From Pinctada imbricata (lineage: Eukaryota), in contig VSWD01000008.1 in the NCBI GenBank assembly GCA_033119305.1, positions 62,196,347 to 62,260,346 on the forward strand: 64,000 bases of DNA, written 5' to 3'. The notes below the pieces were generated by a model. The model was given only the letters and a program-made list of their open reading frames with translations. It was not told where the DNA came from and did not search any database. Both the position numbers and the translations under genes were made by a program. This document shows positions 2,590 to 49,810 of this stretch, piece after piece (position 1 is the first letter of the stretch; the number at the start of each line of letters is the position of its first letter).

Positions 2590-3230
2590 CCTAGCAGCCA
2601 TCTTGGCAATAGCGGAGGAATAGAAAATGTGACCATGGACGGCCGTGTTTGCCGAACTGATTGCCTCGATGAATACAAAATTAGAGGACCATTGATACTT
2701 GCTTCGTGTAAGGTGTGAAATTATATATGCTGTAGTTGTTTAGAAGGTTTAGAAATAGCTTCAGCCGACAAATTGCCCTCTATGCCCATTTCATTTTAAA
2801 GAATTATCAGTCGGTCGTCGGTTGATGGATCGGCTCAAAAACACAAACTTGTTGGAGGATCTACTTGCTTTCCTTTATCATTAGTATCTGTCCTTAAAAG
2901 TTGGTCTGACTTCTCTGTGAAATTTTGTGCAGGGTAGCGTAGGTCGAAATTGCGTCAGCTAAACAAAGCCCTCTGTGACATTTTTTTACGAATCGCCCCG
3001 AAATCGCGAACTTTGCAGAGGCTCTAAAGTGCTTCTTTTCTGTATTCTTTCATGAAAGTCAACGCACTAGCTAATAAGTTGGTCATGTTTGTTCTCTTAC
3101 AGAAGAGTCGAAAATGTGTCATCCAATGACAATCAGAGCCCTTTGTATCCATGTCGGTTGACGAATCTGCTTGGAAACACAAACTTGCTGAAAAGGTTGC
3201 TTTCCCTGATTCTCCGAACATCGATTGTGA
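2590..3230 (+). repeat. About 4 degenerate units of the CCAAT-box ~150-bp repeat family, in + orientation.
   Basis: Matches to the 33000-33360 units, e.g. gtcgaaaatgtgtcatccaatgacaatcagagccc and ggaccattgatacttgcttcgtgtaagg. Confidence 0.55.
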
Positions 3231-3600
3231 CGTCATAACGTAAAGTGCGCCTGCAGGTGCGATGTCAGACATTTGGCAATATTACTCAATATTTATACCA
3301 ATTTTCAAACAAGGTCACAAACGGCATTTTTACTATATGACGTCACAATCGATGACCTTCAAACAATGCATAAGGGTTCATTGATTATGACGACATACAG
3401 TACTGTAATGTAAAAATCCGCCAACATGTTTAATATCGGACATTTGGCGATCCCTTCAAAATATTCGACATCGCACCTGCTGGTGTACTTTTCACTATGA
3501 TGTCATAATCAGTAACCCATCTAATAATGTTTTTGACGGGCCTTTTGTGACGTCATAATGTAGAAATCCGTTTTATGGTAATCTTACAGTTATGAGGTTT
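3228..3600. repeat. CRE-palindrome-rich repeat block: 2-3 units of ~130-180 bp, each carrying ATGACGTCACAATCGA or TGTGACGTCATAATG motifs. It contains a perfect 14-bp inverted repeat GCAGGTGCGATGTC (3253-3266) / GACATCGCACCTGC (3467-3480).
   Basis: Direct inspection. Related copies lie at 4305-4420 and 7975-8070. Confidence 0.7.
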
Positions 3601-3699
3601 TTATAAACAAGTCAACAAAAAATTGAGTTATTCGAGACCACTTTGTCACCCGATCGATAAGTGGAAGGGTTGTGCACGTGCAATCCGGATAACCACATT

Positions 3700-4290
3700 T
3701 GCTACTAAAGCCCTGGACACAACCCGCCGTACGTGTTTTTTTTGGACGTGCGTGTTTGGAGAGGCTACGTGCGCTACGTTTTTCGGAAGACGCAAGGAAG
3801 GAAGTGGCAAGAGTACGAAAGGAGTGCTTCAACGCACATCGCACGTACGTGCAGACACGTGGCAAGTACGTCGTTCGTGCAGACAACGTGCGTGCTACTT
3901 GCTTACAACGTACGATCTCCGTACGTCTTCTGCGTTAAATTAATTATGTGGGTGTTGTACATACACTTACTGCTAAAGCACGGGTTCCTTACTCCCTTAC
4001 GCGACAAGTGCGTTGCACGTACTTACAAAGTACTCGCAACGTGCGTGTCGTACTTCTTGGTGAATCCGTAGAACGTGACAGATGGCCGTCCAAAGTCGGC
4101 ACCGACTGCCATTGGTCTTGTTGGTTTATATGTAGACCTTGGTGTCGTATTTGGTGTTCCTTGCCCCTTTTGCGTCCCTTGTTGTGCTTGTCTGTCCTGT
4201 ATTTTCACAAAGTTGTGATTCGATGTGGGTGCTGCAACCTTGATTGGAGGGGATCTCCAACAAGACCCTGAATCCGTTCTCACGTCTCTA
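3700..4290. other. CpG-dense, ACGT-core-rich island with about 17 ACGT, CACGTG or GTACG motifs in ~350 bp. It is flanked on both sides by copies of the CRE-rich repeat. Open frames on both strands overlap, which looks non-coding.
   Basis: Composition differs sharply from the surrounding AT-rich DNA. ORFs 3590-4283 overlap on both strands with low-complexity translations. Confidence 0.5.
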
Positions 4291-4304
4291 TTTTGAGCGA
4301 TTGC

Positions 4305-47885: not shown

Positions 47886-48329
47886 TATCAGCATCACTCG
47901 ATCAAATACATTGAACATACCATCGAAGTACACGATCACAGTACCATTCATTAACTTTTGCAGTATGTTCAATTTACTCTCAATATATCGTCAATTCACT
48001 TCGTATGCCATGTCATATTACCATCAAAATTCACCGTCACAATATGTTGAAAAGTGTACCAGCACAGGCTGGTGTCGGAAATCTGGCGATCCGACTTATT
48101 AGTGAGTAGTGATGTACTTTTTGGAATCGATCATCGGAAAATAATCGGATAGGCCCGTTAGGCCGGATAATTTTTTTTAGAAGTGCAGCATATTTATAAG
48201 ATACATTTTAGTTTGCATTAAAACTGAGGAAAAATATAGAATCTTCCTATTATTTTCTGTTATTAGTCTTAATTTTCAATAATTATCAAAGAAAGGAGGG
48301 GTTCTCCAACAAGTACGACATCAACACAC

Positions 48330-49070
48330 ACATAAATCAACGAGACCAATGGCCGACTTAGCCAAGGAAATGGTGTAGCTATCGCGATTTCATGCGCACA
48401 ACTCTCCCATTTTCCCCGTTACCAAAAGATCTCGAAGAACACACAATTGTTGTGTACAAGTGTATGATAACCTCCTTATTGTAAGATGACCATTCAAACA
48501 AGATAGCAAAACCCAGAGGCCCAAGCATCTGTAAACAGAAGTATGAAGCCATAGAAGGGGCATACAAAAAACAGTCCGTGCTCCGCTGGCTGGAACAAGT
48601 TCATGCATGCAAGTGCCGATGAGTCCGACCGACACTCAGAGAGGACAGGTGGCCGCGGCATGTCTCGTCTAGAGAGGTTTGGACAGTGCCCGTCATGGAG
48701 CCCCGTCGTCACTTTCCATCAGAGTGCAATTCTTAAGAATGAGCTGGTACAATGCTATAGATTTGTCAATGACAAAGTCCACGTTATACTTGGGATATTT
48801 TGTTACCTAGTTTTGATAGAAAACCAGAACATAGATTTATATTCCCCGGATCTGAATATTCGAAGTATGTATCTGATGAGCGAGTCTCCCCCTCCAAGCG
48901 CGTTGCCAGAGTACTTTTCAAGTGGAGGCACTTTCAGTCAGGGGGTTTGGGATCGCTTTGAAGCCCCTATACTGGGTCAAAGGAGAAGCAAGGATCCAAG
49001 AGGCGAAGTCCTTGAATCTAATGGATTTTACAAATTTACAGGGCAGTTTGCTACTTTAAAATGACCCTTT
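48330..49070. other. Relatively GC/CpG-rich ~700-bp block about 1.1 kb upstream of the DUSP start codon. It could be the DUSP 5' region, a CpG-island-like promoter or a non-coding first exon, or a TE remnant. It holds a 153-aa ORF (48603-49064, +) with no recognisable domain.
   Basis: Composition shift. ORFs overlap on both strands and no motif hit is visible by eye. Confidence 0.2.
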
Positions 49071-49724
49071 GTACACTTTCTTTTATCTGTTTATCTTTTT
49101 TTTTTGCTAAAGACGTGGAAGCATCTGCGTTCTTGCGTATGCCTGGCTACTCGCCTACCCCCCCCCCCCCCTCCCTCCGAATAACGAAGCTAAACGCAAA
49201 GGGCAAAGAAATAAATAATACGGTCCAAAAATCGACAATATACCAAATCGTGTATGTTTACTGAAATAGAATTAAGACTGTCAGTTTTCGGAACCACAAT
49301 GTGAGAACAAAAACTAAGTCTCGAGTTCCTTTCGGCGGCGTTGCTGGTAGGGGACTAATTACATGTATATGAAATTTTGAAAATATGAATACGAAATCGC
49401 AGGAAAACATAATTAAAAAAATCAAATGATAGAAATAGATTACATTTTGTTATCTCTTTACTCCACCTATTTATATGTAACTAGACATTGTTCTGCAGTA
49501 ATTCAGTTAACAATAGTTAAGGTAATTCTGAAAATTATATATATATAGAATATGATGCTCCGTAAAATATTCGCCCCCCCCCCCCTGAATAATTCTGGGT
49601 TGAATCCAGGGCGGGTTAGCGCTCGATCGATCCTTAAAATGGGAAGTAGAGTTTCCGAAAGTGAGGAAGGAAATGTTATTATTTATCAATGTAAAGATTA
49701 CTCAACCATAACCACAAAATAAAA

Positions 49725-49810
49725 CAAAAGGGCGGAGTCAACTCACATGACTAGTAATGAATGGAATCTATTTTAAGACTTACTACGATCCCCTAACCGT
49801 GACGTCAGGT
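49725..49810 (+). promoter_or_regulatory. Candidate DUSP promoter block about 300-380 bp upstream of the ATG: a GC box GGGCGG (49730-49735) and a perfect CRE TGACGTCA (49800-49807). An inverted CCAAT (ccattgg) lies at ~49945.
   Basis: Motifs are seen directly. Vertebrate DUSP1 is a CREB/ATF-driven immediate-early gene (established knowledge), so a conserved CRE here is plausible but unproven. Confidence 0.35.

What the first reader, a model, noticed from the sequence alone, without database searches (positions are those of the whole stretch)
3228..49807. Striking over-representation of the perfect CRE palindrome TGACGTCA, including both gene promoters
The 8-mer TGACGTCA is expected about once in 64 kb of AT-rich DNA. 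Here it occurs at least 12 times: ~3231, ~3343, ~3553, ~4348, ~4388, ~7993, ~8058, 8616, ~11800, ~17947, ~20130, 49800. Most occurrences sit in a recurring context ((A/T)TGTGACGTCA(C/T)AAT), which identifies a dispersed repeat family built around a cAMP-response-element palindrome. Two occurrences lie ~190 bp upstream of the SMOX ATG and ~310 bp upstream of the DUSP ATG. DUSP1 is a classic CREB/ATF target in vertebrates, and SMOX/PAOX are stress-inducible. So the repeat family may be distributing functional bZIP sites, or conversely the promoter CREs may be derived from the repeat.
Basis: partly seen in the sequence, partly recalled or inferred. Interest (0 to 1): 0.6.

Follow-up and report, generated by a model that had tools for sequence, protein, structure and literature searches.

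The report
CRE palindrome excess near two genes
The 8-base cAMP-response-element palindrome TGACGTCA really is about 18 times too frequent in this invertebrate (mollusc-like) window, but for mixed reasons: two copies are ancient, conserved promoter sites of a spermine-oxidase gene and a DUSP1-like gene, five sit in one small decayed local repeat array, and the rest are scattered singletons, so it is a sound but fairly ordinary regulatory finding with one curious repeat-associated twist.

Summary
Allowing for local CpG content gives 0.65-0.68 expected. Collapsing neighbours leaves 12 independent events.

Both are conserved. The SMOX site lies in a block whose core TTGACGTCAC is invariant in four species. 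That block is the only alignable piece of the whole upstream region. The DUSP site lies in a roughly 150-bp conserved promoter block in a related species.

The "dispersed repeat family" reading is only partly right. Real homology beyond the motif is limited to seven ~68-bp units, two with a decayed core. They alternate in orientation with a ~160-bp period at 3216-3603 and 4299-4440, upstream of SMOX. All other sites share at most a 12-16-bp extended palindrome, ATTRTGACGTCAYAAT.

The promoter sites lack that extension and are not detectably derived from the repeat.

Unexpectedly, inverted pairs of the extended motif recur in at least 10 unrelated repeats or palindromes in eukaryote-like (two carrying animal-type genes) metagenome contigs. 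None occur in 596 Gb of prokaryotic genomes.

Best reading: bZIP (CREB/ATF-type) sites, two ancestral and functional, the others repeat-borne and of untested function.

The parts
8616..8623 (.). SMOX proximal-promoter CRE, 188 bp upstream of the ATG at 8804. It is directly preceded by a GC/CACCC box, CCACGCCCC (8606-8614).
   Evidence: The core TTGACGTCAC is invariant in four species. The flanking block ATAAGCCACRCCYC is conserved in L003 and L039.
8595..8647 (+). Conserved SMOX promoter block. It is the only part of the 8.8 kb upstream of SMOX that aligns with the 6 kb upstream region of the related species (L003).
   Evidence: blastn gives 78% identity over 55 nt, and tblastx finds nothing else. 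Supported.
8804..9005 (+). SMOX exon 1 (FAD-binding GxGxxG motif). Further exons lie at about 14442-15353, 16710-16841, 26132-26266 and 28040-28156.
49800..49807 (.). Proximal-promoter CRE of the DUSP1/4-like gene, 311 bp upstream of the ATG at 50111.
   Evidence: TGACGTCAG sits at the equivalent position (-308) in L001. A variant, TTACGTCA, sits at -304 in L014.
49698..49851 (+). Conserved DUSP promoter block. It contains a GC box GGGCGG (49730-49735), CTCACATGAC (49742-49751), a MEF2-like CTATTTTAAG (49768-49777), the CRE, GCGGAGTGATAT (49822-49833), and then a TATA-like GATATGAAAAT.
   Evidence: Alignment A1. blastn aligns 49698-50496 with L001. The transcription-factor names are inferences from consensus resemblance.
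50111..50485 (+). DUSP exon 1 (rhodanese/CH2 domain). Later exons lie at about 61330-61550 and 61665-62108.
3216..3603 (.). First part of the local array. Its units of about 61-79 nt alternate in orientation: 3216-3283 (+), 3292-3357 (-), 3375-3453 (+), 3457-3517 (-), 3540-3603 (+). Exact CREs lie at 3228, 3338 and 3548. Decayed cores are TGACGACA (3388) and TGATGTCA (3498). The period is about 160 bp.
   Evidence: nhmmer E-values for these five units are 3.5e-18 to 2.8e-11. Monomers are 49-63% identical. In the seven-unit alignment, six of the eight core columns are invariant and two are 6/7, so the core is the best conserved stretch.
3575..4298 (.). CpG-rich insertion of about 700 bp in the centre of the third monomer. 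A partial copy lies at 48307-48493 on the other strand. It is not part of the CRE unit.
   Evidence: Its ORFs have no Pfam match.
4299..4440 (.). Second part of the array: units 4299-4362 (-) and 4373-4440 (+), with exact CREs at 4346 and 4386 (TGACGTCACAAT-N24-ATTGTGACGTCA).
   Evidence: E-values 5e-17 and 7e-15.
7993..8061 (.). Inverted pair of extended CREs (CTGTGACGTCAAAAT ... AATATGACGTCACAAT), 555-623 bp upstream of the SMOX promoter CRE. It lies directly after a 133-bp tandem duplication (7662-7931).
   Evidence: Its link to the array is borderline: nhmmer E = 0.01, flank similarity p = 0.004-0.01.
17890..18089 (.). 200-bp inverted repeat in SMOX intron 3. One arm carries TGACGTAA plus ATTGTGACGTCAT (17945). 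The other arm carries CTACGTCA and a decayed core, TGAGGTCA.
11798..11805 (.). Singleton in SMOX intron 1. It abuts the end of a truncated non-LTR retrotransposon ORF (10718-11785, minus strand).
20128..20135 (.). Singleton in SMOX intron 3 (CATGTGACGTCATGAC). Its flanks are unrelated to those of the other sites.
2097..2104 (.). Singleton 6.7 kb upstream of SMOX, with no extended motif.
57777..57784 (.). Singleton in the large DUSP intron. It is followed by CTCTCGCAAGA, one mismatch from the promoter word TCTCGCGAGA.
61955..61962 (+). Copy inside the last DUSP coding exon (codons for ...SNDVSS...).

Best explanation
The excess of TGACGTCA is real but has several causes.

(1) Two copies are ancestral proximal-promoter cAMP/ATF response elements, one for a spermine-oxidase gene and one for a DUSP1/4-like MAP-kinase phosphatase gene. 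The inferred mechanism is standard. A CREB/ATF-class bZIP dimer binds the unmethylated palindrome next to a GC box (SMOX), or upstream of a TATA-like element with GC-box, E-box-like and MEF2-like neighbours (DUSP). It would couple transcription to cAMP, Ca2+ or stress kinase signalling. For DUSP this gives the negative feedback on MAP kinases known from vertebrate DUSP1.

(2) Five exact and two decayed copies belong to one old local array of a ~160-bp monomer. Each monomer is made of two inverted ~68-bp units. The array lies 4.4-5.6 kb upstream of SMOX in a CpG-rich patch. Within the units, the extended palindrome ATTRTGACGTCAYAAT is the best preserved part.

(3) A further inverted pair (7993/8054) and the arm of a 200-bp inverted repeat (17945) carry the same extended motif without detectable homology to the array.

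(4) The remaining sites are singletons, one of them coding.

What recurs is the motif, often as inverted pairs inside palindromic repeats, and not one transposon sequence. I infer that the repeat-borne copies are also bZIP-type binding sites that form a homotypic cluster around the 5' half of the SMOX locus. Their activity is not shown.

Shown here: counts, positions, conservation and repeat structure. Inferred: which protein binds, inducibility, and any enhancer role of the array.
For: - Enrichment.
- SMOX promoter conservation: the block ATAAGCCACRCCYCTTGACGTCAC is present in L003-L010 and in L039/L040. TTGACGTCAC is present in the more distant L015 at -299.
- That block is the only alignable upstream segment, and introns between these species do not align. 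The block is therefore under constraint.
- DUSP promoter: a ~150-bp conserved block containing the CRE, with the site at -308 in L001 against -311 in the window.
- The DUSP catalytic domain is closest to human DUSP1/4/2. Mouse Dusp1 carries a conserved full CRE/TATA site at -153 (PMC5740062).
- CpG observed/expected is 1.26 at 8-9 kb and 3-4 kb, 0.94 at 4-5 kb, and about 1.0 at the DUSP promoter. In the SMOX gene body it is 0.2-0.5. This fits unmethylated, bindable sites at the promoters and the array.
- Array structure. The core is the best conserved stretch of the unit.
- Motif recurrence elsewhere: 22 metagenome loci in at least 10 families carry the inverted extended pair. There are none in 596 Gb of prokaryotic genomes or in IMG/VR.
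- Other sites on those contigs show A-T-T-R before the core, with a purine at position -1 in 68 of 72 half-sites. The RTGAC half-site preference is classical for bZIP proteins (established knowledge).
- Clustering: 12 of the 15 sites lie within 2.1-20.1 kb, and none lie in 20.1-49.8 kb.
Against: - There is no binding, chromatin, methylation or expression data. The transcription start sites are not mapped, so "proximal" is measured from the ATG.
- The more distant DUSP loci from Plakobranchus and Elysia show no CRE within 1.5 kb of the annotated gene start.
- The array is not conserved in the related species, at least within the 6 kb available. Its monomers are only 49-63% identical, so it may simply be decaying repeat DNA.
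- The intronic sites lie in CpG-depleted, probably methylated DNA, where CREB binding would be blocked.
- The ATT/AAT extension lies outside the contacts of a standard bZIP half-site and is unexplained.
- TACATGTA is similarly over-represented, so not every enriched palindrome in this genome needs to be a transcription-factor site.
- A genome-wide frequency could not be measured.
Confidence: 0.55

Rival explanations
1. The non-promoter copies are inert repeat debris. A palindromic (foldback or MITE-like) or satellite-like unit happened to contain TGACGTCA and was amplified locally. The other intronic and intergenic copies are relics of similar elements. Only the two promoter sites have any function.
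For: - Seven units lie in one 1.2-kb array, with divergent monomers.
- The site at 17945 lies in a 200-bp inverted repeat whose partner arm has lost the core.
- The site at 11798 abuts a truncated retrotransposon.
- The array is absent from the related upstream region.
- In the related species (L001), three of the four copies come from one 1.36-kb tandem repeat.
Against: - The core is the best conserved part of units that are otherwise only 50-60% alike, despite containing a mutable CpG.
- The same extended motif recurs in unrelated repeats in other genomes. This suggests the motif itself is maintained or repeatedly selected.
- After the array is counted once and the promoter sites are removed, about 8 events remain against 0.8 expected.
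Confidence: 0.3
2. The extended palindrome ATTRTGACGTCAYAAT is a transposon feature rather than a host regulatory site. It could be a subterminal binding motif for a transposase. It could also be a preferred palindromic insertion target: an element with CA...TG ends inserted into the ACGT of a TGACGTCA target would regenerate two full copies, TGACGT|CA...TG|ACGTCA.
For: - Inverted pairs flank short variable spacers that start with CACAAT and end with ATTGTG, in the window (4346-4393) and in 22 metagenome loci.
- Long near-perfect palindromes carry several copies, for example L022:729-1069.
- One locus lies next to a Penelope-like GIY-YIG ORF.
Against: - No transposase is linked to any of these loci.
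- In many loci the palindrome extends well beyond the supposed insertion. This does not fit an insertion into an unrelated target.
- The search pattern itself forced the CACAAT/ATTGTG ends.
- No target-site duplications could be defined for the window units.
- The conserved promoter sites show that the core is used as a host cis-element.
Confidence: 0.1
3. Statistical or compositional artefact. On this reading, CpG-rich patches or general word bias of the genome produce the excess.
For: TACATGTA is also 14-fold enriched, so the shuffle null model is imperfect. Several sites lie in CpG-rich kilobases.
Against: - Local-composition expectation is only 0.65-0.68.
- One-mismatch variants occur 0-4 times each, and all 15 TGACGTC words extend to the full palindrome.
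- There are 12 independent events against 0.76 expected.
- Two sites are phylogenetically conserved.
Confidence: 0.02

Closest known systems
Full palindromic cAMP response elements in CRE/TATA promoters of vertebrate immediate-early genes, in particular Dusp1/MKP-1
   Same: The window has the exact TGACGTCA core in the proximal promoter of a DUSP1/4/2-class phosphatase gene. A TATA-like element follows about 25 bp downstream. The site is conserved between species, as the mouse Dusp1 site at -153 is (PMC5740062).
   Different: The organism is a lophotrochozoan. The TSS is unmapped. CREB binding and cAMP or activity induction are untested. The neighbouring motifs (GC box, E-box-like, MEF2-like) are named only by consensus resemblance. 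The SMOX promoter CRE has no counterpart that I could document.
Transposable-element or satellite-borne transcription-factor binding sites (for example, CTCF sites spread by SINE B2 in mouse)
   Same: A repeat unit carries a canonical binding motif that is multiplied near a gene. The motif is better preserved than the rest of the unit.
   Different: In this window the repeat is a single local array and not a dispersed family. No mobility hallmarks were found, and binding is not shown. Across genomes it is the 16-bp motif that recurs, not a homologous element.
Short satellite-like arrays with ~160-bp monomers inside MITE-like or Helitron elements of bivalves (pearl, CvA, BIV160/Cg170; PMC5139131)
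   Same: A short array of about 3.3 monomers with a period near 160 bp, containing internal palindromes, in a mollusc-like genome.
   Different: The monomers here are internally inverted duplications, and Tandem Repeats Finder did not call the array.
Human cytomegalovirus major immediate-early enhancer 19-bp repeat (ATTGACGTCAAT), cited from memory
   Same: A multi-copy CRE whose palindrome is extended by ATTG/CAAT flanks and which forms a homotypic cluster.
   Different: The viral motif is a 12-mer built around ACGT. Here the 16-mer is ATTR+TGACGTCA+YAAT. No viral context was found: there were 0 hits in IMG/VR.

Membership tests
Functional promoter CRE (CREB/ATF bZIP site) | Exact or near-exact TGACGTCA core | tested here: met
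   exact cores at 8616 and 49800.
Functional promoter CRE (CREB/ATF bZIP site) | Located in the proximal promoter, within a few hundred bp of the TSS | tested here: inconclusive
   The sites are 188 and 311 bp upstream of the start codons. They lie in kilobases with CpG observed/expected of 1.0-1.26. No TSS data exist. A TATA-like element about 25 bp downstream of the DUSP CRE is inferred only.
Functional promoter CRE (CREB/ATF bZIP site) | Conserved at the orthologous position in other species | tested here: met
   SMOX: four species. DUSP: L001 has an exact site, L014 has the variant TTACGTCA, and Plakobranchus and Elysia have none within 1.5 kb.
Functional promoter CRE (CREB/ATF bZIP site) | Occupied by CREB/ATF and conferring cAMP or stress inducibility | not testable with these tools
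   Needs ChIP or CUT&RUN, EMSA, and reporter assays with and without forskolin.
Dispersed repeat (transposon or MITE) family built around the CRE | Several copies at unlinked positions with homology extending beyond the motif | tested here: not met
   The nhmmer profile of the unit finds seven copies, all within 3216-4440. Other sites match only the core, with E-values of 0.01-5. The flank-similarity test gives the same result. A 20-mer from the unit has no match in JGI metagenomes. Only one 64-kb window could be examined.
Dispersed repeat (transposon or MITE) family built around the CRE | Terminal inverted repeats with target-site duplications | tested here: inconclusive
   Inverted units exist (for example 3219-3244 with 3329-3354, 92% complementary). 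Because the whole array alternates in orientation, element boundaries are ambiguous, and no duplications could be defined.
Dispersed repeat (transposon or MITE) family built around the CRE | An associated autonomous element or transposase | tested here: not met
   ORFs in and around the array have no Pfam domain. The only mobile-element ORF nearby is an unrelated truncated non-LTR reverse transcriptase.
Tandem (satellite-like) repeat, ~160-bp monomer | Head-to-tail monomers of constant period | tested here: inconclusive
   Plus-strand units start at 3216, 3375, 3540 and 4373, with spacings of 159 and 165 bp before the ~700-bp insertion. Monomers are only 49-63% identical. Tandem Repeats Finder does not report the array.
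Tandem (satellite-like) repeat, ~160-bp monomer | Sequence similarity to BIV160, Cg170 or pearl monomers | not testable with these tools
The paper read gives no sequence.

The most novel reading that the evidence does not exclude
An extended 16-bp CRE palindrome, ATTRTGACGTCAYAAT, typically arranged as inverted pairs inside hairpin-forming repeats, may be a recurrent and repeatedly amplified sequence module in animal genomes (possibly lophotrochozoan; the source organisms of the metagenome contigs are unknown). On this reading the module is recognised by a specific protein, either a bZIP with extended flank preference or a mobile-element protein. Such modules would seed clusters of cAMP-responsive sites near genes, and the cluster around the 5' half of this SMOX locus would be one example.
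Probability: 0.2. Interest if true: 0.6.

Novelty: new member of a known kind. Interest (0 to 1): 0.4.

Why it matters
The two conserved promoter sites suggest that CRE control of a DUSP1-class MAP-kinase phosphatase is shared between a mollusc-like animal and vertebrates, whether by deep conservation or convergence. They also point to a previously undocumented CRE-plus-GC-box core in the spermine-oxidase promoter, which would link polyamine catabolism to cAMP or stress signalling. Both are directly testable with small reporter constructs.

The repeat-borne copies give a compact natural case for asking whether repeats spread usable bZIP sites in an invertebrate genome. The cross-genome recurrence of the extended palindrome in unrelated repeats is a lead no searched paper mentions (a search of the open-access library only).

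None of this overturns current understanding. The main value is to separate the real regulatory signal from the repeat signal.

Tried and rejected
- **One dispersed family (rejected).** I tested whether all sites belong to one dispersed repeat. A self-BLAST of the flanks, a unit profile with nhmmer and a flank-identity permutation test all reject this. Only the local array is homologous.
- **Promoter sites derived from the repeat (not supported).** Their flanks are unrelated to the repeat, and they predate the species split.
- **Small-RNA genes or tRNA-derived SINEs at the sites (none).** There are no Rfam or tRNA hits in the window or in 17 metagenome loci.
- **Coding potential of the CpG-rich insertion and the upstream ORFs (none).** No Pfam domains were found. 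The ORF at 5952-6533 and its positional counterpart in L003 share only a KFVPPxR motif.
- **Conservation of intronic sites (could not be assessed).** In the closest relative (L016, exon 79% identical), introns do not align at all and L016 has no CRE.
- **Unit 20-mer in JGI metagenomes (no hit).**
- **Literature (nothing relevant).** I searched for TGACGTCA with oyster or transposon terms, for the extended 12-14-mers, and for the sample accessions.
- **Species identity (unresolved).** The closest named proteins are gastropod, bivalve and brachiopod at about 50-55% identity.
- **Bacterial promoter scan on the DUSP promoter (irrelevant).**
- **Viral (parvovirus-like hairpin) origin of the palindromes (no support).** There are 0 hits in IMG/VR.

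
Full report
**1. The observation**

An exact search finds 15 copies of TGACGTCA in the 64-kb window. They lie at 2097, 3228, 3338, 3548, 4346, 4386, 7993, 8054, 8616, 11798, 17945, 20128, 49800, 57777 and 61955. Dinucleotide-preserving shuffles give a mean of 0.83 and a maximum of 4.

The window is 35.6% G+C with CpG observed/expected of 0.68. 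Recomputing a first-order expectation in local blocks of 1, 2 or 4 kb still gives only 0.65-0.68. CpG-rich patches therefore do not explain the excess.

The full palindrome is highly specific. All 15 TGACGTC words extend to TGACGTCA. Fifteen of the 18 GACGTC words lie inside it. Each one-mismatch variant occurs only 0-4 times.

When sites closer than 200 bp are merged, 12 events remain against 0.76 expected. TGACGTCA then ranks fourth among all 8-mers, after poly-C, TACATGTA and CAAGGTCA.

One caution applies. TACATGTA occurs 30 times against 2.1 expected and is spread over the whole window. This genome therefore has strong word biases that a shuffle null does not capture.

**2. What the window is**

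The window is eukaryotic. Exon 1 of a rhodanese-domain dual-specificity phosphatase starts at 50111. Its best named relatives are gastropod proteins at about 50% identity.

A spermine-oxidase-like gene has exons at 8804-9005 and at about 14442-15353, 16710-16841, 26132-26266 and 28040-28156. Its best named relatives are Lingula, Bulinus and Dreissena at 51-54% identity.

The phosphatase catalytic domain is closest to human DUSP1, DUSP4 and DUSP2. The source is therefore a lophotrochozoan, probably a mollusc, with no close annotated relative in the databases available.

Relative to these genes, the sites fall as follows:
- Upstream of SMOX: 2097 to 8616.
- In SMOX introns: 11798, 17945 and 20128.
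- DUSP promoter: 49800.
- Large DUSP intron: 57777.
- Last DUSP coding exon: 61955.

Twelve of the 15 sites lie between 2.1 and 20.1 kb. None lies between 20.1 and 49.8 kb.

**3. The two promoter sites are conserved**

*DUSP.* A contig from a related species (L001; exon 1 is 71% identical in protein) has TGACGTCA 308 bp before its ATG, against 311 bp in the window. The alignment shows a block of about 150 bp (window 49698-49851) that is far better conserved than its surroundings. The block contains:
- a GC box;
- CTCACATGAC;
- a MEF2-like CTATTTTWAG;
- the CRE;
- GCGGAGTGATAT, followed by a TATA-like stretch.

A more distant locus (L014) has TTACGTCA at -304. The Plakobranchus and Elysia loci show no CRE within 1.5 kb of the annotated gene start.

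*SMOX.* Contigs from a second species (L003-L010; exon 1 is 78% identical) carry ATAAGCCACACCTCTTGACGTCAC at -241. The window has ATAAGCCACGCCCCTTGACGTCAC. A third species (L039/L040) has the same block at -245. A more distant one (L015) has TTGACGTCAC at -299. In the four-way alignment, TTGACGTCAC is invariant.

This 55-nt block (8595-8647) is the only part of the window's 8.8-kb upstream region that aligns with the 6 kb upstream in L003, at either the DNA or the translated level. Introns of the closest relative do not align at all. The block is therefore a phylogenetic footprint.

Both promoter kilobases have CpG observed/expected of 1.0-1.26, whereas the SMOX gene body has 0.2-0.5. This fits unmethylated promoters and a methylated gene body.

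The vertebrate parallel is documented: mouse Dusp1 has a conserved full CRE with TATA at -153 and belongs to the CRE/TATA class induced through CREB and CRTC1 (PMC5740062).

**4. The repeat**

Five exact sites (3228, 3338, 3548, 4346, 4386) lie in an array of ~68-bp units that alternate in orientation. The unit consensus is approximately CATCGATTGTGACGTCATAATGTAAAAATCCGCCAGCAGGTGCGATGTCGGA.

A profile built from the units recovers exactly seven copies, with E-values from 3.5e-18 to 2.8e-11: 3216-3283 (+), 3292-3357 (-), 3375-3453 (+), 3457-3517 (-), 3540-3603 (+), 4299-4362 (-) and 4373-4440 (+). Two of them have decayed cores, TGACGACA and TGATGTCA.

Plus-strand units recur every ~160 bp. The structure can therefore be read as about 3.3 copies of a 160-bp monomer that is itself an inverted duplication. 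Monomers are only 49-63% identical, and Tandem Repeats Finder does not call the array.

The third monomer is split by a CpG-rich insertion of about 700 bp (about 3575-4298). A partial copy of this insertion lies at 48307-48493. Its ORFs have no domain matches.

Within the unit alignment, six of the eight core columns are invariant and the other two are 6/7, so the core is the best conserved stretch.

Outside 3216-4440, the profile matches only the core and a few flanking bases. The E-value is 0.01 for 7993, 0.02 for 11798, and higher for the rest.

An independent test compared the 24 nt on each side of every pair of sites with random positions. It links only the five array sites, and weakly 8054 and 7993.

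The window therefore holds a local, old array and not a dispersed family. The promoter sites share nothing with it beyond the 8-mer.

**5. The extended motif**

The array units, the 7993/8054 pair and 17945 all fit a 16-bp degenerate palindrome, ATTRTGACGTCAYAAT.
- 7993/8054 form an inverted pair just after a 133-bp tandem duplication.
- 17945 lies in one arm of a 200-bp inverted repeat (17890-18089). The other arm retains CTACGTCA and a decayed core, TGAGGTCA.

Thirteen of the 15 sites have GTGACGTCA on one strand. That corresponds to about 9 of 11 independent events, against roughly one third expected. This last figure is my own hand calculation from base frequencies and not a tool output.

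To see whether this is peculiar to the window, I searched public collections for the inverted pair TGACGTCACAAT-N(10-40)-ATTGTGACGTCA. The pattern has 24 fixed bases, and my rough estimate of its chance expectation in the JGI collection is well below one.
- JGI metagenomes returned 22 contigs.
- The 596-Gb collection of prokaryotic genomes returned none.
- IMG/VR returned none.

The 22 contigs have 37-47% G+C and carry 2-8 CREs each. One has a MAP1B-like gene and one a Penelope-type GIY-YIG ORF, so at least these two look like animal DNA. The contigs fall into at least 10 unrelated sequence groups.

Several are long near-perfect palindromes. L022:729-1069, for example, has 112-nt arms that are 97% complementary and carries four CREs. 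Four contigs share a ~250-bp block with three to four CRE-like sites within 50 bp.

The sites on these contigs that were not part of the search pattern show A, T, T, R at positions -4 to -1. A purine occupies position -1 in 68 of 72 half-sites.

The window's unit profile matches these contigs only over the 16-mer. What is shared across genomes is therefore a motif, not a homologous element. I found no paper that mentions these extended words.

**6. Interpretation**

The purine before TGAC is the classical bZIP half-site (RTGAC; established knowledge of GCN4, AP-1 and ATF sites). The two conserved promoter sites show that this lineage uses the core as a cis-element. The most economical reading is that all these sequences are bZIP-type (CREB/ATF-class) binding sites.

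Two sites are ancestral and very probably functional. The others are carried by palindromic repeats and form a homotypic cluster around the 5' half of the SMOX locus. Whether the repeat-borne copies are bound, or are merely decaying repeat DNA, cannot be decided here. I give the inert-repeat rival 0.3.

A transposon-centred reading is not excluded but has no positive support. On that reading the motif is either a subterminal transposase-binding site or a palindromic insertion target regenerated by CA...TG ends. No transposase is linked to any locus, and the palindromes extend beyond the putative insertions (confidence 0.1).

A purely compositional artefact is effectively excluded.

**7. Verdict**

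The promoter CREs are real and conserved. The dispersed repeat family is in fact one local array plus sites that share only a motif. The promoter sites are not detectably derived from the repeat.
- Conserved CREs in a DUSP1-class promoter are expected biology. A conserved CRE-plus-GC-box core in the spermine-oxidase promoter, and the recurrence of the extended palindrome in unrelated repeats of other eukaryote-like (probably animal) contigs, are modestly new leads.
- Interest is 0.4. Novelty: a new member of a known kind.

Noticed in passing
window, 30 positions from 5911 to 63047: The palindrome TACATGTA occurs 30 times against 2.1 expected from shuffles. It is spread across the whole window (26 events more than 200 bp apart). 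This is a stronger and more evenly dispersed excess than that of the CRE. One possible origin, which is my speculation, is CpG decay of ACGCGT-type words.
   Followed up: partly
window, 45 occurrences in 19 events: CAAGGTCA/TGACCTTG and overlapping words (GACCTTGA, AGGTCAAG, CCTTGACC) are strongly enriched. This points to a dispersed repeat that contains a nuclear-receptor-like TCAAGGTCA word.
   Followed up: no
window:410-1004 and 1458-1568: A CpG-rich tandem repeat of 46 bp (12.7 copies, with higher-order periods of 94 and 186 bp). Its consensus is ACACTGAAGCGACTATAACGTGCATGATACAAACACCGATCACGTT. It accounts for the high CpG observed/expected in the first 2 kb.
   Followed up: no
window:7662-7931: A 133-bp tandem duplication (2.0 copies, 98% identical) lies directly upstream of the 7993/8054 CRE pair.
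   Followed up: no
window:10718-11785 (minus strand): A 355-aa ORF with a zf-RVT domain. It is the C-terminal part of a truncated non-LTR retrotransposon in SMOX intron 1. On the minus strand, the CRE at 11798 and a TATAAAA word lie just 5' of its first ATG.
   Followed up: partly
window:44000-48000: A satellite-like region with extreme strand asymmetry (GC skew -0.40, AT skew +0.27). Its tandem units contain CATCAATACACCATCACAGTATCAT-like words and give long repetitive ORFs at 45143-46109. It contains no CRE.
   Followed up: no
window:3575-4298 and 48307-48493: A CpG-rich element of about 700 bp, rich in ACGTGC and CGTACG words, is inserted in the middle of the CRE array. A partial inverted copy lies 1.3 kb upstream of the DUSP promoter. 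No domain hits were found.
   Followed up: partly
window:49698-49851 and 50024-50080: The DUSP promoter block conserved with L001 contains more than the CRE: a GC box, CTCACATGAC, a MEF2-like CTATTTTAAG and a GGAAT word. A second conserved stretch (GGTCTTATCTCAATGGAAAGGTCG) lies in the presumed 5' UTR.
   Followed up: partly
window:57777-57800: The intronic CRE is followed at once by CTCTCGCAAGA, which is one mismatch from the widespread promoter word TCTCGCGAGA. This may mark an internal or alternative promoter in the large DUSP intron.
   Followed up: no
window:54267-54554: A tandem repeat that translates as repeated CMYCEY(M/I)(G/E)TVYP units, in the DUSP intron.
   Followed up: no
window:5952-6533 (minus strand) and L003:3341-3931 (minus strand): ORFs of 193 and 196 aa lie at the same relative position, about 2.3 kb upstream of SMOX and divergent from it, in two species. 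They share only an N-terminal KFVPPxR motif. This may be a fast-evolving neighbouring gene. The L003 ORF contains a coding TGACGTCA.
   Followed up: partly
L001:1972-4708: The species related to the window has a tandem repeat with a period of about 1.36 kb, 5-8 kb upstream of its DUSP gene. Each unit carries AGATGACGTCACAATCCGG, the same TGACGTCACAATC extension as in the window's array, in otherwise unrelated sequence.
   Followed up: partly
L020:1700-1900, L030:560-780, L034:1230-1450, L038:3860-4090: Four metagenome contigs, otherwise unalignable, share a block of about 250 bp with three to four CRE-like sites in 50 bp (TGACGTCACAATCATAATGACGTCATTACGTCACCAGCAGATTGTGACGTCA). It is flanked by a (GT)n tract and a conserved AATTTTAGTTAATTATTTTAACTAACA stretch. 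No Rfam family matches. It could be either a conserved regulatory element or a repeat.
   Followed up: partly
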